From sequence record PP627280.1: a DNA stretch of 58,460 nucleotides; one strand, given 5' to 3'. Below, one piece after another: positions 5,826 to 41,015 of the stretch. Each line of letters starts with the position of its first letter. The stretch's first letter is position 1. The position numbers were made by a program, and so were the translations under genes. Origin of the DNA: Escherichia phage SHIN8. The notes under the pieces were generated by a model, which made no database searches, was not told the DNA's origin, and was given only the letters and a program-made list of their open reading frames with translations.

Positions 5826-6149
5826 ATGCGTTATCAACGTTATGAGCGACATGACTTGATGGAAAAATCGTTGCAGGTGGAGCCAATTTCGATTACTCTC
5901 GATCCTGCTAAGATTGACACCACAACTTCAGAAGTAAAAACGGTTACTGTTAAAATAAACTTTGTCCCAGGCGGAACTACAAACAAAGCGTATAGCGCGT
6001 CAGTTGACGGTTCCTCTGCTACAATTAAAGACAACGGGGACGGTACAATTACCGTGACCACAACCGCAAGCAGTGGTACTTCAAACTTGACAGTAACGTC
6101 CAAGGCAAAGGATAGTGTTACTGGTACATGTGTTATTAATGTGACCTAA
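5826..6149 (+). CDS. Ig-like (Big_2-type) domain protein, possible head decoration
   Basis: 107 aa, Thr/Ser-rich beta-strand pattern (TVTVKINFVPGG...TITVTTTASSGTSNLTVTSKAKDSVTGTCVINVT); AGGAGA RBS. Confidence 0.55.
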   Translation: MRYQRYERHDLMEKSLQVEPISITLDPAKIDTTTSEVKTVTVKINFVPGGTTNKAYSASVDGSSATIKDNGDGTITVTTTASSGTSNLTVTSKAKDSVTGTCVINVT

Positions 6150-10457: not shown

Positions 10458-13400
10458 TGGCCGAAACTGCTTCGCTAGTAATCAGGGTTGACGCGAAAGG
10501 GATTAGCACAGCGGACTCCATGCTGCGTAACCTTGCGCGTACAGGTGACACAGCGGAGCGTTCCGCTCAACGTGTCACATCCAGCTATAAAACATTGTCT
10601 AACACATCTAACGAACTTGCAACTGTCACAAGTCGTTTGGATGCTGCAATTGTAGGAATGATTAGCGTTGACACTATTAGCCGTGTTATTTCGCTGTCTG
10701 ACTCCTGGACCATCCTTACCAACAAACTTGAACTGGCTCGTACGGGTAATGAAACCGTTGCGGATGCGCAACAACGTGTATTTGATATTGCCCAGCGTTC
10801 GCGTACAAGCTTGGAAGCGACTGCAACTCTGTACTCCCGTCTCCAGCGTGCGATGAAGAATACTGGTATGACGGGTATGGAGCTTGGACGTATCACGGAA
10901 ACAATCAACAAAGCAATGATCGTTTCTGGTGCAACGTCCCATGAAGCAAGTGCTGCCCTTATTCAGTTTTCGCAAGCAATGGCGTCCGGTGTTCTGCGTG
11001 GGGACGAATTCCGATCCGTTGCAGAACAAGCGCCCCGCTTAACTCAAATCATGTCCGATGCATTAGGTGTTACCATTGGACAATTGCGCGAAATGGCCTA
11101 CAGCGGCAAGTTAACCGCCGATGTGGTTATCAAATCGTTGTCTGGTGCTGCGGATACAATTGATAAAGAATTTAGCCGCACTATGCCAACTTTCAACCAA
11201 CAATGGACGATTGCAACAAACAACCTGACTAAATTTATGGGTGAATCCCAAAAGACTCAAGGTGCGGTCGCTGCATTGGGTCAGACGTTTGTTGCATTAT
11301 CTGAAAACTTAGGAACGGTTGTAACGGTTGGTTCAGCTTTAGCCACAGTGATTACCGCCCGTATCATTACGGCAATGCTTGCTAAGACTAAAGCGTCTAT
11401 AGCTGCTGCAAAAGCATCACAAATGGAAGCTGCACAAACTGCGGCAACTACGGCGGTGATGCAAAGCTCTATTGGCGTTACCGCACAGAAAGCGGCTGCG
11501 GATCGTGCTGCTTCGCTTGCCGCGTTACAGGTTGCTCGCGGGTCATTAGCGGTTGCTAAGGGTACGGCAGCGGAAGCGGGCGCACGTCTTGCCCTTATTA
11601 ACGCTACCCGTGCGCATTCTGCGGCAATTATGGCGGACGTACAAGCGCGGCAAGCGCTCAATGCTGCTCTTAATGCAACTGTACCAGCCGCAAGCCGGGC
11701 GGCTACAGCAATGAGCGTGCTGCGCGGTGCTATGGGGTTAATTGGTGGTCCTGTTGGTGTAGCAATGCTGGCAGCGGGTGCAATTTACTCCTATAAAGCG
11801 TCGCTGGAAGCAGGTCGTGCGGAAAACAATCAGTTTGCGGATAGTGTTGACAGTGTACGCGATAAATTGATGCAAATGACGGAAGCTCAGCTGGCAGCTA
11901 ACGCGGTCAAAGCTAGAGCAATCCTTCCGGAACTTGAAGAGCAACTGAAGCGGGAGCAGAACGCTCTAAAATCTGCAACAGAAACACAGAAGTTCTATGA
12001 AGCACAATTAAAACGCCGTGCCGCGTCCGGTCGTGATACAGCTAGTGCTGAGAAGAACTTACAAATTGCAACGGATAACGTCAAGCTTGCTGCCGAGCGT
12101 GCTGAAGAAGCTCAACGCCGTTACAACAATGTGCTTGAAATGACAAGTCCCGCTATAGAGAAAATAATCCCTCTAGCGCGTCAGCTTGCTGCGGATATGA
12201 AGGCAGTTCTTAACATCAAATCCGGTCCGTTGATTGACGAAAAAGTATTGGACCGCTTTAAAGGTCAACTAGGGGACGTTAACCGTGAGATTGATGTTAA
12301 CACGGTTAAGGGTGCTGGTAATGCTCGCCAAGCTGCAATCCTTAGTGGACTGTATCAGACGCTGGGCAAGGATGCGGATACATACGGAAGTCTTATTCGC
12401 AAAGTAGCTATGGGCCAGGACGTTAGCTCAGAGGCAACAAGCGAATCCGCTAAAGAGCTTGTTAAATATGCTCAAGATTTAGCGCAAGCTCTTGGCAAAA
12501 ACTACGATCTTGAAGAAGCAGAGAGAAACCGGACTAAAGCTACAAAAGACGGTATTAAAGCAGAACAACAGAACGCCAAAGTTATTGACGATTTACGCAA
12601 CAAGCTTAACGAAGTAACCACAGGAGTTAAGGAAAACGCCAAAGCAAAAGCTCAAGCTGTGGCTTTAAACAAGCTCAATACGTCTGCAACTGCCGCGGAA
12701 AAAGCAGAAGTTGTTAGTCTTGCTGCTGCAATTTACGATGCAGAAGAAGCTCAAAAGAAACTGGACGAGCGTAAGAAGAATCGTAAGTTTGCTCAGGGTC
12801 TGTTAGATGAAGGTATGACAGACTATGAAAAAATCGCGTATGAGCAAAATACTAAGATTGCAGATCTTAATGCAAAACAACGGGCGGATGATCTAGCTTA
12901 CTATCAGCTTTACGAAGACGCTAAGACGCAAGTCCTGAAGAAAGCAAGCATGGAAAGGGAAAACCTGGATAAAGTTCTTATGAACCGAATGATATCCTTT
13001 TCTCAGGAATCCTTAGGCATTATAATGGATGGACTGTCACAGGCTGTAAGCCAGCAGAACTTCTTTTATAAAGCTATGTTTGCAGCACAGAAAGCAATGC
13101 AAATCCCGTCAATCCTTGCCAACACGGAAACCGCGGCTTCTGCGGCGCTTGCATGGGGTACACAGCAAGGCGGTGCCACGATGGGTGCAACAATGGCAGC
13201 TATAGTGAAAACTATGGGTTATGCGTCCGCTGCTACTGTGGGTGGCTTAGCGATTGCTGGTATGGCTCACGACGGTATTGATAACGTTCCGCGTGAAGGT
13301 ACATGGTTGCTGGATAAGGGTGAACGTGTACTTAATGCTCCGTCTAATGACAAGTTAAATCGCTTCCTGGATAGCCAAGCTTCACAACAAGGTGGCGTGA

Positions 13401-14745: not shown

Positions 14746-15154
14746 GTTGCCGGGCTGGCAGACACGTTTATTAACCACAGTAAAGGAGTTGTCATCGACT
14801 CCTTTTTCTTGGGGTGAAAATGATTGCTGCACCTTCGCGGCTAAATGTGTTGATGCGCAATACGGCACAAATATCTACGAACAAGTTGCTGGAAAATATA
14901 GTACCGAGCTTGGAAGTAAAAAGTTCACTATTGAAAGAGTTGGAACCGCTTACCTCCCATTGTTATTGGATACTTACCTCAGCGAACGCGTTGACAAGAA
15001 CTATGCGCAAAGAGGCGATGTGGTTACATTTGAGGGAGCATTGGGCTTAACTGCTGGCATATTATGGACTGGATATGTATGGGCTATGGGTCCGAACGGT
15101 GTGGAAACATTCCCGCTTAATAAGATCAAAATTACGGATATTTGGAGGGTCTAA
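14720..15154 (+). CDS. tail tip assembly protein (gpK-like, putative)
   Basis: ORF-track ORF 14570-15154 trimmed to internal ATG 14720 with GGAG RBS; conserved Cys in SWGENDCCTF. Confidence 0.35.
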   Translation: MRQGSPMSKLPGWQTRLLTTVKELSSTPFSWGENDCCTFAAKCVDAQYGTNIYEQVAGKYSTELGSKKFTIERVGTAYLPLLLDTYLSERVDKNYAQRGDVVTFEGALGLTAGILWTGYVWAMGPNGVETFPLNKIKITDIWRV

Positions 15155-18100
15155 TGCCACCAGCAATAATTGGAGCAGCGATAGCTTTAGGTGCGTCGGC
15201 TGCTGCTGCGGCTAGTATTATTTCGGCTACTACCGCTCTCGTTATCGGTATTGCTGCAACCGCGGCAGGTGCTCTTTTGACTAAGACACCAAATATGAAC
15301 TTTGATGCTTACAAGGGGCAGCAAGAGCGTAAACAGGTTCTGCGTGCGGCTACAGCGTCACGTTCTGTTGTATATGGCACGACCGTAGCGTCCGGACTAT
15401 TAGCATTTGCGGAGGAAGAAGCTGGAGATCAAGATGAAGGTGAATGGATGCATCTTGTTGTTGTTCTTGCTAGTCATAAATTGGAAGGTATTGAAACGAT
15501 TTGGTTGGGTGATGACGGAATTGATTGGTTTGGTGAAAACGCTACTTGGGAGTTTCATAACGACCGTCAGACTGTTGACCCATTCATGTTAAGACATTGT
15601 CCTTCCTGGAAGGAGGATATGATTGGCAAGGGTATTGCATGGCTACGTTTAAGCTTAAAGTTTGATGCTGAAAAATTCCCATCTGGTTTGCCAAACGTCA
15701 AGGTGTTGAAAAAGGGACGTAGAGTCTATGACCCACGTTCCGGTCAAACTGTCTTTAGTGATAACGCAGCTCTTGTAATACTCGATTATTTCCGCACGTA
15801 TTTAAAGCGCAAGGATGAAAACATTAACTGGGACCAATTCAAGGAAGCTGCTAACATCTGCGACGAGTTTGTAACTAATGCAGATAATACCACAGAAAGA
15901 CGCTACCGAATTAATGGTGAGTTTGAAGTGGACGAAGCACCTGCCAAGATTCTCGATGCTATGCTTGAAGCTTGTGGCGGGGAGCTAACCTATATTGGCG
16001 GCAAGCATGGTCTGTTAGTTGGTGCTTATTACGGCCCAGCTACCATGACTTTGGATGAAAGCTGCATTGCTGGGGATATTAAAATAATCCCTGAGACATC
16101 TTATAAAGAGCGTACCAATACCATTACAGGTACATTCGTCGACCCGAAGCAAACATACGCTGAAGCAGATTTTCCTCCAGTTGTGGTTAAGGAATGGGTG
16201 GAAAAAGATGGCGGTGAAATAACGCAAGACATGGATTTCCGCTTTGTTACAAGTGAATATCAAGCTCAACGTCTTGCTAATATTATTTTACGTCGTAAGC
16301 GTGTTGGTCGAACAATTGAAGTGCCGTGTAACATGAAGGGGTATAAATTCCGCCCCGGCATGTATGTCAACGTAACCATTTCAAATATCGGAATGAAAAA
16401 CGTTGAGATGCGCGTTACTAAATGGTCATTCGATCCTAAAGGTGGGATTAATCTTGTTCTTCGTCAAGACTTCCTGGAAATGTGGGACGACGCTATTGGT
16501 AAACCAATGGAGCGCCCGGATCTGGTAGACCTTCCGTCTGGTGCTATTGCTCAACCGCAAAACCTTCAGTATCAGGTATTGCAGATTAGCGATGTTGTGC
16601 AGGGTGTTTTAACGTGGAGCAATATTGGGCAGGTAGCATATAACCGCGTAGCCGTGCGACAGGGAGGTACAACGGTTTGGACCGCCCAAGTCCCTGGCCA
16701 AAATGTTCGCGTTACTGGGTTGCTGCGGGGCGCGTATACAGCGCATGTTCAAGCGGTAGCTTACAGCGGGGCAATATCGCCGGAAGCATATCTGGAATTC
16801 AATATTCAAGCACCACCTCCGCCAACTTCTGTTGAAGTGCAACAGGGTTACTTTGCTATAAGTTTGATCCCAAAATCTGCGGATATTGCAAACGTTAGCA
16901 CGCAGTATGATTTCTGGACTTCCGGTGAAACAAGATTGTCTTCCGTGTCTACAGACATTGTAGAACGCGAAGCAACTCGTAAAGGTATGGGTACAACTTG
17001 GACGTCAGAAGGGTTGAAGAATGACCACACTTATTACTGGTATGTCCGCACCATTAACGCTTTCGGATCATCTGCATTTGTAGAAGTAGCTGCATTGTGC
17101 TTTACAACAGCTACAGATTTGATGCCACAAATTGATTCTGAATTCAAGAAGACGGAGACTTACAAAGAGCTTACTACTGAAATCACAGGTGTTAAAGACG
17201 GTGTTACTCAGCTTAGCCAAACTGTAGTGGAAACTGAACAGCGTTTAAGTCAAAGCGTTAGCAATGTTCAACAAAGCGTTATCACTTTAGATGGTGTTGT
17301 TCAGGATCAGGGCGTTACCATTAATGAACAAGGACAGCTCATCGATGCACAGGGTAAGTTGATTGACACTCAAGGTAAGACTATTGAAACGGTTAGCGCG
17401 ACCGTGCAGGAGACAAGTAAAGCAGTTGTAGATTTGGAAGGTAATGTTAACGCTCAATGGGGTGCTAAAGTACAGGTAGATAGTAAAGGGCAAAAATACG
17501 TTGCTGGTATCCAGTTAGGTATGGAAGGGTCCGGTGGAGCTGTTCAGTCTTACTTCATGGTAAGCGCTAACAACTTTGCTATCTATAACCCGACAAATAG
17601 CGTAGCAGAACTAGCATTTGCTGTTAAGAACGGTCAAGTGTTCATGAAGGCTGCGTTTATTGAAAATGGTACTATTGACAGCGCTAAAATTTCAAATCAA
17701 ATTCAGTCAACAAACTACGCAAGCAATAGCGCGGGTTGGATGATTAACAAGAATGGTAGCGCTCAGTTTAACAACGTAACGATAAGAGGTACTGTATACG
17801 CTAGCAACGGATCTTTCACAGGCACAGTGAACGCAACAAGCGGTAAATTCAAGGGTACTGTGGAAGCTACCAGTTTTGTGGGTGATGTTGCGAATATGTG
17901 TGTCATTGCTGAGTCTGCAATACCAAACACACAAACTACAAGTTCAAGAACCTGGACAAAAACTTTCAAAGACTCATCCGGTTCAACATTATCTAAAGAC
18001 TTTGTGTTGCTATTAAGTTATAGTTTAACTGCATATACATCAAATCGGGCAAGTCGTATAATTGTGACTGCTAACATAGGGGAGACATCAATTACAAGGA

Positions 18101-18387
18101 GGATTGAGCGAGCTGCTAATGGTCCTGCCATGGATGTAACCATACCTTTAGCAGTGAAAGGAAGTCGTATAATTGTGACTGCTAACATAGGGGAGACATC
18201 AATTACAAGGAGGATTGAGCGAGCTGCTAATGGTCCTGCCATGGATGTAACCATACCTTTAGCAGTGAAAGGAAAGACAGCGTCGAGCGTAACAATAAGC
18301 GTTAAGGAGGAGTATACGAACGTCTATGGGAGCTACTTGCGCCCGTCTGTAATATTAATGACTCGCGGAACTGGTAGTTGGTCGTAA
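15142..18387 (+). CDS. central tail fibre / host specificity protein (lambda J-like)
   Basis: 1081 aa; hydrophobic N-terminus then J-like core; C-terminal region carries a tandem 37-aa duplication. Confidence 0.75.
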   Translation: MEGLMPPAIIGAAIALGASAAAAASIISATTALVIGIAATAAGALLTKTPNMNFDAYKGQQERKQVLRAATASRSVVYGTTVASGLLAFAEEEAGDQDEGEWMHLVVVLASHKLEGIETIWLGDDGIDWFGENATWEFHNDRQTVDPFMLRHCPSWKEDMIGKGIAWLRLSLKFDAEKFPSGLPNVKVLKKGRRVYDPRSGQTVFSDNAALVILDYFRTYLKRKDENINWDQFKEAANICDEFVTNADNTTERRYRINGEFEVDEAPAKILDAMLEACGGELTYIGGKHGLLVGAYYGPATMTLDESCIAGDIKIIPETSYKERTNTITGTFVDPKQTYAEADFPPVVVKEWVEKDGGEITQDMDFRFVTSEYQAQRLANIILRRKRVGRTIEVPCNMKGYKFRPGMYVNVTISNIGMKNVEMRVTKWSFDPKGGINLVLRQDFLEMWDDAIGKPMERPDLVDLPSGAIAQPQNLQYQVLQISDVVQGVLTWSNIGQVAYNRVAVRQGGTTVWTAQVPGQNVRVTGLLRGAYTAHVQAVAYSGAISPEAYLEFNIQAPPPPTSVEVQQGYFAISLIPKSADIANVSTQYDFWTSGETRLSSVSTDIVEREATRKGMGTTWTSEGLKNDHTYYWYVRTINAFGSSAFVEVAALCFTTATDLMPQIDSEFKKTETYKELTTEITGVKDGVTQLSQTVVETEQRLSQSVSNVQQSVITLDGVVQDQGVTINEQGQLIDAQGKLIDTQGKTIETVSATVQETSKAVVDLEGNVNAQWGAKVQVDSKGQKYVAGIQLGMEGSGGAVQSYFMVSANNFAIYNPTNSVAELAFAVKNGQVFMKAAFIENGTIDSAKISNQIQSTNYASNSAGWMINKNGSAQFNNVTIRGTVYASNGSFTGTVNATSGKFKGTVEATSFVGDVANMCVIAESAIPNTQTTSSRTWTKTFKDSSGSTLSKDFVLLLSYSLTAYTSNRASRIIVTANIGETSITRRIERAANGPAMDVTIPLAVKGSRIIVTANIGETSITRRIERAANGPAMDVTIPLAVKGKTASSVTISVKEEYTNVYGSYLRPSVILMTRGTGSWS
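18051..18272 (+). repeat. perfect tandem duplication, 2 x 111 bp, in-frame within tail fibre gene
   Basis: 18051-18161 and 18162-18272 identical base for base; encodes the same 37 aa twice. Confidence 0.9.
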
Positions 18388-18394
18388 TAAATAA

Positions 18395-18424
18395 TTAACC
18401 CCTCATTTGAGGGGTTAATTTTCA
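18395..18424. terminator. bidirectional intrinsic terminator
   Basis: TTAACCCCTCA-tt-TGAGGGGTTAA perfect stem followed by TTTT; sits between convergent fibre and lipoprotein genes. Confidence 0.55.
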
Positions 18425-18655
18425 ATAATCAATCACACAGTTTGAAGGTGAGCCAATTCGTCGGTATTCGTGATCAATTTCATGACACCATTGCCCAGTC
18501 ATTGGAAGCTTTTCGGTATCATAAATTAAAGAACCGTTACCATCGCGATCCAAAGGTTTTGGAACGACGCCGGAATTAGGTTTACCAGTATTTAAACCAT
18601 TACCACATGCAGTAAGGGACAAACATAATGCCAGCATAATTAGAGCGTGTTTCAT
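18422..18655 (-). CDS. small lipoprotein, candidate superinfection-exclusion protein (Llp/Cor-like by position)
   Basis: 77 aa; signal peptide with lipobox LTAC; convergent with tail fibre gene. Confidence 0.55.
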   Translation of the reverse strand: MKHALIMLALCLSLTACGNGLNTGKPNSGVVPKPLDRDGNGSLIYDTEKLPMTGQWCHEIDHEYRRIGSPSNCVIDY

Positions 18656-18737
18656 CGGGACTCCTTTGTGTTGTTGTCAAGGTTCAATTTTAATATACTT
18701 GTTGTGTTGAGTAAGTCAAATAAAAGTGGGAGATATT

Positions 18738-19346
18738 ATGGCAACTCGTTTACGTGGTACTTTAGTTGATGGTTTGAACAAGCCTATTATCAACGCTACA
18801 GTTGCGCTTTTAGCTAAAGGAAACAGTCTTACCGTATTATCCGGCAGCGAAGCTATCTTTAAAACAAGTGCAACCGGAACATATGACATCACCGTCCAAA
18901 CAGGTTATTACAAGGTTATTATCGGTCTGCAGGGCGTAGAGCCATATAAAGCTGGTGAAATTGCTATTTACGCGGATAGTAAAGAAGGTACGCTGAATAA
19001 CTATTTAACTTCCTGGGCACCAGAAGAGTTAACTCCGGAAGTTATTGCTCAGGTAAAAGATTTGGTTGCACAAGCAGAGACAGCTAAGAATGCTTCAGCT
19101 TCGTCTGCTACTAAATCCGAGCAAGAACGCGTTAAAGCAGAAGCTACTCGTGCTCTCCTGCGCGATCAGCACGCACAAGCGCAAGCTGTTCTGATCTGTG
19201 ACCTGAAGTCCCAGTTGCAGGAAGCTCGCTTTGCAAACTCTCAGTTGGCGCAGACGGCTGGCCTTACCTGTAAAATCAATCAGGTTGAGCAGTTAGTTAA
19301 CTTTAAGCTGCCAACTCCTCCAACTCCTCCGACTGGCTGCTGCTAA
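18738..19346 (+). CDS. protein with carboxypeptidase-regulatory-like beta-sandwich N-domain (possible fibre/structural)
   Basis: start moved to ATG 18738 with GGGAG RBS (track start 18726 is GTG); N-domain G-x-V-x-D...ATGTYDITVQTGYYKV; coiled-coil middle; C-terminal PTPPTPPTGCC. Confidence 0.4.
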   Translation: MATRLRGTLVDGLNKPIINATVALLAKGNSLTVLSGSEAIFKTSATGTYDITVQTGYYKVIIGLQGVEPYKAGEIAIYADSKEGTLNNYLTSWAPEELTPEVIAQVKDLVAQAETAKNASASSATKSEQERVKAEATRALLRDQHAQAQAVLICDLKSQLQEARFANSQLAQTAGLTCKINQVEQLVNFKLPTPPTPPTGCC

Positions 19347-32234: not shown

Positions 32235-33047
32235 TTACAAGCCGTTCAGGGCTTCCGGTACTGGCATAGGCACACGGCCAGTTACACCATTAAACTTCTT
32301 CCAACGTGCATACTGAGTTTTAACGGTATCTTCGTTCAGACCGTGGCGACCAGCCAGATTCAGAACATAAGAGATCGGAGCAGGCTGACCCAGCGTAGCG
32401 CTAATCTGATCCATCAGAGCCCAGGCACGACCGCAGGAAGTCTCAGGTTGTGGACGACGAACACCATTCTGTTCAGGCATACGGTTCGCTTCTTTCGCTT
32501 TTTCACGTTCAGCTTTTTCGCGGGCTTTTTCAGCAGCCTTTTCAGCCTGTTTAGCAGCGCGGATCTTGTCTTTGAAGCCTTTGATAAACGAATCCAGTTC
32601 GTCAACCATGCTCTGAGCAGCACTTACTGCACCGGACAGATCTTCATCTTTGGATTTTTTAACAACTGCTTTCAGCTCTTTCAGTTTATTCTTAAAAAGC
32701 TTCAGCTGTTCAGAACCCTGAAATTCAGCTACCGTAATCTCTTCAATAGTGCCTTTATCGGCAACATCGGATAAAACAGACCTCACGGTTTCAACTCCGC
32801 GGGAAAGAGCGGTAAATTTATTTTCCGCTACAGCACGAATTTCAGCTTGTTTCTTTTCAGCGGCAGCTTTTTTCTCTGCTTCTTTTTTCTCTTTTGCTAC
32901 GCGTGCAGCTTCAGCAGCAGCGGCTTTTTTAGCCTCTGCGTCGTTAGCAGTAGCTTCTTTCTTTGCAGGCTTAGCAGATTTTGCAGCGGCAGCAGCGGCT
33001 GCGGCAGCAGCGGCTTTCTTATCTTCAATATTACTCATTTTCTTCAC
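32235..33047 (-). CDS. Ala/Lys-rich low-complexity protein, possible histone H1-like DNA-binding protein
   Basis: 270 aa; N-terminal AAAAAAAAAAKSAKPAKK and AKKA repeats; structured C-terminal domain. Confidence 0.4.
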   Translation of the reverse strand: MKKMSNIEDKKAAAAAAAAAAAKSAKPAKKEATANDAEAKKAAAAEAARVAKEKKEAEKKAAAEKKQAEIRAVAENKFTALSRGVETVRSVLSDVADKGTIEEITVAEFQGSEQLKLFKNKLKELKAVVKKSKDEDLSGAVSAAQSMVDELDSFIKGFKDKIRAAKQAEKAAEKAREKAEREKAKEANRMPEQNGVRRPQPETSCGRAWALMDQISATLGQPAPISYVLNLAGRHGLNEDTVKTQYARWKKFNGVTGRVPMPVPEALNGL

Positions 33048-39280: not shown

Positions 39281-39899
39281 TCATAATAATCATGTTGATG
39301 AGAACTGCCACGTATACCGCAACGTTCTAAAAGTATTGCAGCTTTTTGAGCTTTCTCTTTCATACGGGTATTACGGCGTAAATGTCCGCTACCCTTTTTA
39401 GGTCTATTTTCCTTTTTCTTTGCTTCGGAAATAAGCTCTTTGCATTCCTGCAAACGGATCTTGCTTCTTTCCAATCGCATAGCAGAACGCGCACGTTCAT
39501 CGCAAAATCTTTGGGCTTTACTACGTTGGTCTTGCGTACTTGTATGACCTTTAACGTGGCGGAACTCAATAGTTAGATTATATTTACGCAATTGATCGTT
39601 CAACCATTTGAAAGCTACACCTTCCTGTTCACTTTTCCAGCTTGCTTCTTTATACACTTTAATAGCTGTTGAACAATCTGTTTGCACAATTAAATGATCG
39701 CCTGGATGGATTAATTTAGCCTTCAATCCCTCCCAAATAACATTACAGATTGCCATTGTTTCAGCTGCATTATTATCAGGAGCTCCACGTAACGGCCCAC
39801 CGTTAGCGTTATTTCCACGGTTGCACACTACCCAGCCACCGTATCCCGCGGCTTTGTATTTGGACAAAAACTTGCATCAGATATAATTGTTACTCTCAT
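39277..39899 (-). pseudogene. ribonuclease H, interrupted by frameshift at an A5/T5 run
   Basis: N-terminal MRVTIISDASF is in another frame from the track ORF (TTG start at 39867); one extra T at 39866-39870 gives continuous ..SDASFLSKYKAAGYGGW..TDC.. Confidence 0.5.
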
Positions 39900-40181: not shown

Positions 40182-40973
40182 TTACAGTTTGTCTTTGAAC
40201 TCTTCGATATATTGCTCGATCGGATACTGCTTACGCTTGAAACGATCAAACAAGATTTTAGCAGATTCTACGTCTTCGTCGCTCTCTTTACTTGCGCCCG
40301 GTGCCATAAAATCACGCCATGTAAAACCGTTCAGATTATGCATCTTAGCGATGTGCTTGTTGTAACGGCTTTCCCAGTCCACACGCGGACCTTCCATCGT
40401 GCGTAAACCGCGCCCAAGCACCTGTACATATAGATCTTTCTGACGTTGTACAGCTTCGCCATTATAAGGTCCGGTTTTAAACTCAACAATACTACCGTTA
40501 AGATCTACACCATCTGCAAAGTTGTGTAGCATAGTTTCAATGACGTCATTCAATGTTGGAACCGCCACTTTACCCTGAGCAATACCTGCTAAATAACCGA
40601 CGTTTTCTTCACCGTACAACTCGATCAGTTCTTTCTTGGTTGCTTCTGCTTCTTTGTTTGCGGACAAAGCCAACATCTGTTGTTCGAACATGTGCTCCTG
40701 TTCCAGGAAGTGAGCATAGCGCTCTTCGTCTACTTTGCACACAATCCATTTATATTCAACATCCTTGCTGAAGTCCGGATACTGATCTACTTCTACTACT
40801 TCCGTAGCAAAGAACTTGCCGTTATGTTGAATAACAACTGTATCGCCCGGCTGCAATTCGTCACTTTCCAGAGCACGGTAGGTATAAAGACGCCCACTCG
40901 CTTCAAACTTAACTTTGACAGTTACAACGCCTTTTAACAGAGCATGATAAGCTTTCTGAAATTCTTTACGCAT
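40182..40973 (-). CDS. hypothetical protein
   Basis: 263-aa ORF. Confidence 0.4.
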   Translation of the reverse strand: MRKEFQKAYHALLKGVVTVKVKFEASGRLYTYRALESDELQPGDTVVIQHNGKFFATEVVEVDQYPDFSKDVEYKWIVCKVDEERYAHFLEQEHMFEQQMLALSANKEAEATKKELIELYGEENVGYLAGIAQGKVAVPTLNDVIETMLHNFADGVDLNGSIVEFKTGPYNGEAVQRQKDLYVQVLGRGLRTMEGPRVDWESRYNKHIAKMHNLNGFTWRDFMAPGASKESDEDVESAKILFDRFKRKQYPIEQYIEEFKDKL

Positions 40974-41015
40974 TTTTAGTTTCCTCTTGGGCGGATTGAC
41001 CGCCCGTTAATGTGG

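What the first reader, a model, noticed from the sequence alone, without database searches (positions are those of the whole stretch)
18051..18272. Perfect 111-bp tandem duplication inside the tail-fibre gene
Two adjacent copies are identical base for base and in frame, duplicating a 37-aa segment (SRIIVTANIGETSITRRIERAANGPAMDVTIPLAVKG) in the distal part of the J-like fibre. Perfect identity implies a very recent duplication or an assembly artefact. If real it lengthens or re-registers the receptor-binding region and may reflect host-range adaptation.
Basis: seen in the sequence. Interest (0 to 1): 0.6.

Follow-up and report, generated by a model that had tools for sequence, protein, structure and literature searches.

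The report
Assembly-overlap artefact in tail-tip gene
The perfect 111-bp doubling in this phage's tail-tip gene is almost certainly a leftover of genome assembly, because the same laboratory's other phage genomes carry an identical-length perfect doubling at unrelated places.

Summary
Window 18051-18272 is two adjacent, base-identical, in-frame 111-bp copies inside the J-like tail-tip gene (15154-18387) of Escherichia phage SHIN8, a Seuratvirus. The biological reading does not hold. I examined eight phage genomes from the same laboratory (442 kb). Five of them (SHIN8, KS_S4, KS_W4, SM_S22, SM_W22) each carry exactly one perfect two-copy tandem duplication of exactly 111 bp. The five sit at five different sites and in two unrelated genera. 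No other perfect tandem duplication with a period above 16 bp exists in any of the eight. At each site, relatives sequenced by other groups have one copy. KS_S4 with its duplication collapsed is 99.988% identical to KS_A3, which lacks it. The new copy-to-copy junction is absent from public viral and metagenome contigs. All the Seuratvirus records start at, or 11-12 bp before, the small-terminase start codon, so they were rotated. The best explanation is a pseudo-circular de Bruijn contig whose ends overlapped by the k-mer length (k = 111) and which was rotated before the overlap was trimmed. The true J protein is most likely 1040 aa, not 1077. Confidence is about 0.95. Reads or PCR would settle it. 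The main value is database correction.

The parts
18051..18161 (+). Copy 1 of the 111-bp unit. Under the artefact model this is the k-mer that formed the start of the original contig, or equally the genuine single copy.
   Evidence: TRF, direct reading, exhaustive scan.
18162..18272 (+). Copy 2 of the 111-bp unit, base-identical to copy 1. One of the two copies is the untrimmed terminal overlap and should be deleted from the record.
   Evidence: Relatives have 990 bp where the window has 1101 bp.
18150..18175 (+). Novel copy1-to-copy2 junction (GCAGTGAAAGG|AAGTCGTATAATTGT). It exists only if the duplication is physically real.
   Evidence: The junction 26-mer is absent from IMG/VR viral contigs and from JGI metagenome contigs. 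The normal junction GCAGTGAAAGGAAAGACAGCGTCG is found in 3 IMG/VR contigs.
15154..18387 (+). J-like central tail fibre / tail-tip gene. It is 1077 aa as deposited (WZL04264.1, phage SHIN8) and most likely 1040 aa in reality.
   Evidence: Pfam Phage-tail_3, Ig_J, Ig_J_second and Phage_Tail_Tip. PDB matches to lambda gpJ and other J-like proteins reach about residue 940. In the 90% cluster only SHIN8 and KS_S4 are 1077 aa among the listed members; 11 of the other 12 listed are 1040 aa and one is 1022 aa.
18422..18655 (-). Neighbouring small gene on the opposite strand, annotated as a lipoprotein in relatives. It is context only and is not affected by the duplication.
   Evidence: ORF list; annotations in KS_S4, Seurat and CAjan. 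No Pfam hit.

Best explanation
The second 111-bp copy is an artefact of how the genome record was built and is not part of the phage DNA. A de Bruijn graph assembler such as SPAdes, run with a largest k of 111, returns a circularly permuted phage genome as a pseudo-circular linear contig. The first and last k bases of that contig are the same sequence. The contig was then rotated to start at the small-terminase ATG without first removing one copy of that overlap. The two contig ends were therefore joined head to tail, producing an internal, perfect, exactly two-copy tandem repeat of length k. In SHIN8 the arbitrary contig break happened to lie in the distal part of gene J. Because 111 is a multiple of 3, the reading frame survived and the gene caller produced a 1077-aa protein in place of the real 1040-aa one. 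Shown: the repeat itself; the recurrence of the same length at other sites in sibling records; its absence from relatives; and the rotated state of the records. Inferred: the assembler, the value k = 111 and the order of the steps.
For: (1) Recurrence of the same length at unrelated sites. Perfect 2.0-copy, 111-bp tandem duplications occur in KS_S4 at 18120-18341, KS_W4 at 40789-41010 in a different gene, SM_S22 at 39478-39700 and SM_W22 at 5890-6111. The last two are Dhillonvirus, an unrelated genus. All come from the same laboratory. (2) Exhaustive scan of 8 genomes from that laboratory, 442,235 bp: every perfect tandem duplication with a period above 16 bp is exactly 111 bp, and there is at most one per genome. 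(3) SHIN8 and KS_S4 both have +111 bp in J, but their boundaries are about 70 bp apart, so they are independent events of identical length. (4) 21 of 22 full-length relatives have one copy at the SHIN8 site. All 32 full-length relatives have one copy at the KS_W4 site. Among the listed members of the J cluster, only SHIN8 and KS_S4 are 1077 aa. (5) Collapsed KS_S4 is 99.988% identical to KS_A3 over 58.4 kb, and KS_A3 has no duplication. (6) Four of the six Seuratvirus records begin exactly at the terS ATG and two begin 11-12 bp upstream; the end-to-start junctions agree between records, which shows computational rotation. (7) There is no junction microhomology in KS_S4, KS_W4 and SM_W22, 1 bp in SM_S22 and 2 bp in SHIN8. 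(8) In KS_S4 the repeated unit starts immediately after one of only four SNPs that separate it from KS_A3. This is expected if a graph loop is anchored at the vertex that closes a SNP bubble. (9) The junction sequence is absent from public viral and metagenome contigs. (10) The k-mer-length terminal repeat of SPAdes pseudo-circular phage contigs is documented: PMC12007190 and PMC7372960. The Phage Annotation Guide, PMC8785237, warns that redundancies can end up inside a contig.
Against: No reads were available, so single-copy status in the DNA is not shown directly. The text I could read for the laboratory's preprint contains no assembly methods, so the assembler and k = 111 are inferred. My recollection that Shovill picks 31,51,71,91,111 for 150-nt reads comes from memory and I could not confirm it in the literature. 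KS_A3, KS_A8 and Dru_SM1 from the same laboratory lack the duplication, so the pipeline did not always leave it. The SHIN8 and KS_S4 break points lie only about 70 bp apart, roughly a 0.2-0.7% coincidence if breaks were uniformly random. This is explained for KS_S4 by the adjacent SNP but not for SHIN8.
Confidence: 0.95

Rival explanations
1. A genuine, very recent in-frame tandem duplication of 37 residues in the distal receptor-binding part of J. It would have arisen by replication slippage or illegitimate recombination during propagation and might alter adsorption or host range.
For: The repeat is in frame and lies in the distal roughly 150 residues of J, the region that binds the receptor in lambda-like tail tips (the receptor role is from general knowledge of lambda gpJ). 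A 2-bp microhomology (AA) is present at the junction. A second phage, KS_S4, also has +37 aa in the same region.
Against: The same exact length occurs as perfect duplications in a non-tail gene of KS_W4 and in two Dhillonvirus genomes from the same laboratory. It occurs nowhere in relatives from other laboratories. KS_S4's near-identical twin KS_A3 lacks it. The junction is absent from public assemblies. Five independent real duplications would not all be exactly 111 bp with zero divergence.
Confidence: 0.02
2. A real terminal redundancy (111-bp direct terminal repeats at the physical genome ends) that the assembler placed inside the contig.
For: The Phage Annotation Guide notes that terminal repeats can end up inside contigs. 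Two perfect adjacent copies are what an internalised terminal repeat looks like.
Against: Physical ends would have to lie inside the J coding sequence in SHIN8, 70 bp away in KS_S4, and at 40.8 kb in the co-linear relative KS_W4. They would also need the same 111-bp length in an unrelated genus. Real termini are conserved in position among close relatives. KS_A3, essentially the same phage as KS_S4, shows none.
Confidence: 0.01
3. A different computational artefact that gives the same result, such as manual joining of overlapping contigs, or a polishing or scaffolding step that inserts a fixed-length overlap, rather than a k = 111 graph overlap.
For: The methods are unknown. A constant length across genomes only shows a pipeline constant and does not identify which one.
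Against: 111 is odd and below 128, as k values for SPAdes-type assemblers must be (general knowledge). The documented behaviour of SPAdes fits exactly. The KS_S4 boundary abuts a SNP, as a graph vertex would.
Confidence: 0.02

Closest known systems
k-mer-length terminal overlap of pseudo-circular SPAdes contigs of phage genomes (described in PMC12007190 and PMC7372960)
   Same: The two copies are perfectly identical. There are exactly two copies. The length is a pipeline constant equal to the assembler's k and does not depend on locus or phage. Relatives lack it.
   Different: Here the overlap is internal and not at the record's ends, because the contig was rotated to the terS start before trimming. 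The length is 111, not the commonly reported 127. It fell inside a gene and went unnoticed because 111 is divisible by 3.
Internalised terminal redundancy in assemblies of phages with direct terminal repeats (Phage Annotation Guide, PMC8785237, question 4)
   Same: A redundancy that belongs at contig or genome ends appears as an internal direct repeat after assembly.
   Different: True terminal repeats sit at a conserved genomic position in related phages, and their length is a property of the phage. Here there are five positions and one length, across two genera.
Genuine repeat expansions or duplications in phage receptor-binding proteins linked to host-range change (general knowledge; not tested here)
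   Same: The location is the distal part of a tail-tip protein and the insertion is in frame.
   Different: There is no support from relatives, from a twin genome or from public assemblies. The identical length at non-tail loci in other genomes argues against a biological origin.

Membership tests
Assembler k-mer overlap artefact (rotated pseudo-circular contig) | The two copies are 100% identical, directly adjacent, and number exactly 2.0 | tested here: met
   TRF gives 100% matches, 0 indels and 2.0 copies; exhaustive scan.
Assembler k-mer overlap artefact (rotated pseudo-circular contig) | The length is a pipeline constant: the same length in other genomes from the same source, whatever the locus or phage | tested here: met
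   111 bp in KS_S4, KS_W4, SM_S22 and SM_W22 at four other sites and in two genera. No other perfect tandem duplication with a period above 16 bp in 442 kb.
Assembler k-mer overlap artefact (rotated pseudo-circular contig) | Absent from close relatives assembled independently | tested here: met
   21 of 22 relatives have one copy at the SHIN8 site and 32 of 32 at the KS_W4 site. KS_A3 matches collapsed KS_S4 at 99.988%. Cluster lengths.
Assembler k-mer overlap artefact (rotated pseudo-circular contig) | The record was rotated relative to the assembler's contig | tested here: met
   Records start exactly at the terS ATG (11-12 bp before it in KS_W4 and Dru_SM1), and the end-to-start junctions agree between records.
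Assembler k-mer overlap artefact (rotated pseudo-circular contig) | The assembler was run with a largest k equal to the repeat length (111) | not testable with these tools
   The preprint text available contains no assembly methods. The Shovill default for 150-nt reads is recalled from memory only.
Assembler k-mer overlap artefact (rotated pseudo-circular contig) | Reads support a single copy (no junction reads, uniform depth) | not testable with these tools
   No read data were accessible. As a proxy, the junction 26-mer is absent from IMG/VR and JGI metagenome contigs.
Genuine tandem duplication in a receptor-binding protein | The same duplication, with the same boundaries, is seen in an independent isolate or assembly | tested here: not met
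   The only other +111 bp J gene (KS_S4) has boundaries about 70 bp away. The junction is absent from public contigs.
Genuine tandem duplication in a receptor-binding protein | The size is idiosyncratic to the event, not shared with unrelated loci from the same data source | tested here: not met
   Five events, all exactly 111 bp.
Genuine tandem duplication in a receptor-binding protein | Junction-spanning reads or a longer amplicon | not testable with these tools
   Needs the raw reads or a PCR.
Lambda-J-like central tail fibre / tail-tip protein (the host gene) | Phage_Tail_Tip and J Ig-like domains, and a position after the tape measure and distal tail genes | tested here: met
   Pfam PF09327 (E 3e-44), PF24489 (E 9e-34), with weaker PF24421 and PF13550. 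PDB hits to lambda gpJ 8iyk and 8xcj. Gene order in the annotated relatives.

The most novel reading that the evidence does not exclude
The duplication is physically present in SHIN8 virions, and its 111-bp length only coincidentally matches the artefacts in sibling records. SHIN8 would then carry a 37-residue in-frame repeat in the distal receptor-binding part of J, and KS_S4 a second, overlapping one. That would point to a hotspot where the tail tip tolerates or exploits segmental duplication during host adaptation.
Probability: 0.02. Interest if true: 0.35.

Novelty: not a real feature. Interest (0 to 1): 0.06.

Why it matters
There is little biological content here. The practical value is data hygiene. 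At least five deposited phage genomes carry an untrimmed 111-bp overlap: SHIN8, KS_S4 (PP627282), KS_W4 (PP627281), SM_S22 (PP627283) and SM_W22 (PP920555). The overlap lengthens four annotated proteins by 37 residues, including two tail-tip proteins (WZL04264.1 and WZL04467.1) that could mislead comparisons of receptor-binding proteins, host-range prediction or structure modelling. The case also gives a simple screen: a perfect two-copy tandem repeat whose length is odd, at most 127 bp, and shared by other records of the same submitter should be treated as an assembly overlap until reads show otherwise.

Tried and rejected
(1) Assembly methods. The laboratory's preprint (10.1101/2024.04.14.589459) names the phages, but the text I could read has no sequencing or assembly methods. 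No published version turned up.

(2) Literature confirmation that k = 111 is a standard choice, for example in Shovill. Searches returned nothing usable (searches failed, 51-55). That point stays marked as coming from memory.

(3) An independent assembly of the same phage. The exact sequence of the collapsed 1040-aa SHIN8 J is not in the 15-billion-protein collection, so no comparison was possible.

(4) Neighbouring accessions. PP627276, PP627277, PP627280 and PP627284 are not in the phage collection.

(5) Variant sites as an explanation for the break points. This works exactly for KS_S4, where a private SNP at 18119 abuts the unit. It does not work for SHIN8 or KS_W4, where no sibling SNP is directly adjacent.

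(6) Structural mapping of the duplicated segment. PDB and Pfam matches stop near residue 940, so the distal domain has no template. I did not run a structure prediction because it could not change the verdict.

(7) A real terminal repeat and a real duplication were both considered and rejected, for the reasons given under the rival explanations.

Full report
**The observation**

The window contains two adjacent, base-identical 111-bp copies at 18051-18161 and 18162-18272. Tandem Repeats Finder reports period 111, 2.0 copies, 100% matches and no indels, and the sequence read directly shows the same. Two more bases (AA) match after copy 2, so the boundary is ambiguous by 2 nt.

The repeat is in frame in the long ORF 15142/15154-18387 on the + strand. 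It duplicates the 37-residue segment SRIIVTANIGETSITRRIERAANGPAMDVTIPLAVKG at residues 967-1003 and 1004-1040, counted from the ATG at 15154. It is the only exact repeat of 60 nt or more in the window.

**What the gene and genome are**

The ORF is a lambda-J-like central tail fibre, or tail-tip protein.
- Pfam finds Phage-tail_3, two J Ig-like domains and Phage_Tail_Tip at residues 751-887.
- Solved structures of lambda gpJ and other J-like proteins align up to about residue 940.
- The duplicated stretch therefore lies in the distal part that has no template.

An exact-sequence look-up identifies the protein as WZL04264.1, "central tail fiber J [Escherichia phage SHIN8]", on a 58,460-bp contig, which is the window length. 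The window is thus the genome of phage SHIN8, a Seuratvirus (Queuovirinae) related to CAjan and Seurat. It was isolated from Japanese sewage by a laboratory that also deposited KS_A3, KS_A8, KS_W4, KS_S4, Dru_SM1, SM_S22 and SM_W22.

**Relatives have one copy**

For a 1101-bp query across the repeat, 21 of 22 full-length relatives align over 990 bp in two pieces, which means a single copy. Among the listed members of the 90% protein cluster, only SHIN8 and KS_S4 are 1077 aa. Eleven of the other twelve listed are 1040 aa and one is 1022 aa.

**The key result**

KS_S4 also has +111 bp in J. It is a perfect two-copy duplication of exactly 111 bp, but its boundaries lie about 70 bp further 3' than those in SHIN8. 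These are two independent events of identical length.

I then scanned whole genomes for perfect tandem duplications:
- KS_W4 has a perfect 111-bp duplication at 40789-41010, in an unrelated hypothetical gene that is 903 bp there and 792 bp in its siblings.
- SM_S22, a Dhillonvirus and so an unrelated genus, has one at 39478-39700.
- SM_W22, another Dhillonvirus from the same laboratory but a different submission, has one at 5890-6111.
- KS_A3, KS_A8 and Dru_SM1 have none.

Across all eight genomes (442,235 bp), every perfect tandem duplication with a period above 16 bp is exactly 111 bp, and no genome has more than one. At the KS_W4 site all 32 full-length relatives have a single copy. SM_S22's repeat sits in a naturally repeat-rich region, but the natural repeats there are imperfect (77-91% matches), and no relative reproduces the 801-bp arrangement.

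**Further support**

- With its duplication collapsed, KS_S4 is 99.988% identical to KS_A3 over 58.4 kb, differing by four SNPs and one 3-bp indel. They are the same phage, and one record carries the extra 111 bp while the other does not.
- Four of the six Seuratvirus records begin exactly at the small-terminase ATG, and KS_W4 and Dru_SM1 begin 12 and 11 bp before it. The end-to-start junctions agree between records, so the records are computational rotations of circularised contigs.
- Junction microhomology is 0 bp in KS_S4, KS_W4 and SM_W22, 1 bp in SM_S22 and 2 bp in SHIN8. That fits an arbitrary cut better than slippage.
- The novel copy-to-copy junction 26-mer is absent from IMG/VR and from JGI metagenome contigs. 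The normal junction is found in three IMG/VR contigs.

**Mechanism**

De Bruijn graph assemblers return a circularly permuted genome as a linear contig whose first and last k bases are the same sequence. Two phage papers describe this for SPAdes and say the overlap was removed by hand: PMC12007190 and PMC7372960. The Phage Annotation Guide (PMC8785237) warns that redundancies can end up inside a contig.

If such a contig is rotated before trimming, for example to start at the terminase gene, the two ends are joined head to tail. The overlap then becomes an internal, perfect, two-copy tandem repeat of length k. A single length shared by five genomes at five sites is the signature of a pipeline constant.

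Two points here are inferred. The value k = 111 is inferred from the repeat length. From memory, 111 is the largest k that Shovill selects for 150-nt reads, but I could not confirm this in the literature. The laboratory's preprint text held here gives no assembly methods.

Because 111 is divisible by 3, the artefact never breaks a reading frame. That explains why it went unnoticed in four coding regions, and why being in frame is not evidence for biology.

**A residual puzzle**

The SHIN8 and KS_S4 break points are only about 70 bp apart, which would be roughly a 0.2-0.7% coincidence for uniformly random breaks.

For KS_S4 there is a specific explanation. One of its four SNPs against KS_A3 is at 18119: G in KS_S4 giving Lys, T in all siblings giving Asn, at J residue 989. 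That base immediately precedes the repeated unit 18120-18230. The chance of such adjacency to one of the five differences is about 2 in 10,000. In a de Bruijn graph, the k-mer that starts right after a variant site is the vertex that closes the bubble, and a loop is naturally anchored at such a vertex. This suggests that the KS_S4 reads contained both alleles, from a mixed stock or from carry-over from a sibling library.

For SHIN8 and KS_W4 no sibling SNP abuts the unit, so the position of the SHIN8 break remains unexplained without reads.

**Rivals**

- **A genuine recent duplication.** This cannot be excluded without reads. It would require five independent events of exactly the same length, all without divergence, confined to one laboratory's records and absent from a twin genome. 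I give it about 2%.
- **A real 111-bp terminal repeat placed internally.** This would need physical ends inside gene J in SHIN8, 70 bp away in KS_S4, at 40.8 kb in co-linear KS_W4, and the same length in another genus. I give it about 1%.
- **Another computational step with a fixed overlap.** This is possible, at about 2%, and would lead to the same practical conclusion.

**Verdict**

The sequence feature is real in the record but very probably not in the phage. The J protein of SHIN8 should be 1040 aa, and one copy (for example window 18162-18272) should be removed. Interest is low. The main value is correcting five public records and providing a simple screen for this class of artefact. Junction-read counts, read depth on a one-copy reference, or a PCR across 17950-18400 (340 bp versus 451 bp) would be decisive.

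Noticed in passing
Loci L007 18120-18341 (KS_S4, PP627282.1), L006 40789-41010 (KS_W4, PP627281.1), L012 39478-39700 (SM_S22, PP627283.1), L015 5890-6111 (SM_W22, PP920555.1): Four other GenBank phage genomes from the same laboratory each carry one perfect two-copy 111-bp tandem duplication. These are probably the same untrimmed assembly overlap. Three of them lengthen annotated proteins by 37 residues.
   Followed up: yes
L007 (KS_S4) position 18119 versus L004 (KS_A3) 18119; equivalent to window 18120: KS_S4 and KS_A3 differ at only four SNPs and one 3-bp indel genome-wide. Three of the four SNPs are in tail genes (8741, 12542, 18119). The one in J changes Asn to Lys at residue 989, in the distal receptor-binding part, and directly abuts KS_S4's duplicated unit. 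It may be a real polymorphism in the stock.
   Followed up: partly
window 18726-19346 (+): The lateral tail fibre ORF is only 206 aa. It has a Prophage tail fibre N-terminal domain (Pfam PF08400), and homology to the roughly 1030-aa fibre of KS_A3 and KS_A8 ends near window 19145. SHIN8 therefore seems to have a truncated or replaced lateral tail fibre, as the BASEL phage GottfriedDienst does.
   Followed up: partly
window 32986-33015: This is a natural 15-bp perfect tandem repeat (GCGGCAGCAGCGGCT), with 2 copies here and 3 copies at the matching place in KS_A3 and KS_S4. It is a genuine small copy-number polymorphism and a useful contrast with the 111-bp artefact.
   Followed up: partly
window 18394-18419: A GC-rich inverted repeat (ATTAACCCCTCA..TGAGGGGTTAAT) lies between the stop codon of J and the convergent small lipoprotein gene (18422-18655, minus strand). 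The equivalent site is annotated in phage Seurat as a bidirectional terminator flanking an apparent moron.
   Followed up: no
L012 (SM_S22) about 11390-11555 and 39478-39700; L015 (SM_W22) about 11998-12159: The Dhillonvirus genomes have two distant repeat-rich regions that share exact stretches of 60 nt or more (CGGGACA-type motifs, about 28 kb apart). The equivalent region in phage SO-1 is annotated as direct, inverted and palindromic repeats. The SM_S22 contig break fell inside one of these regions.
   Followed up: no
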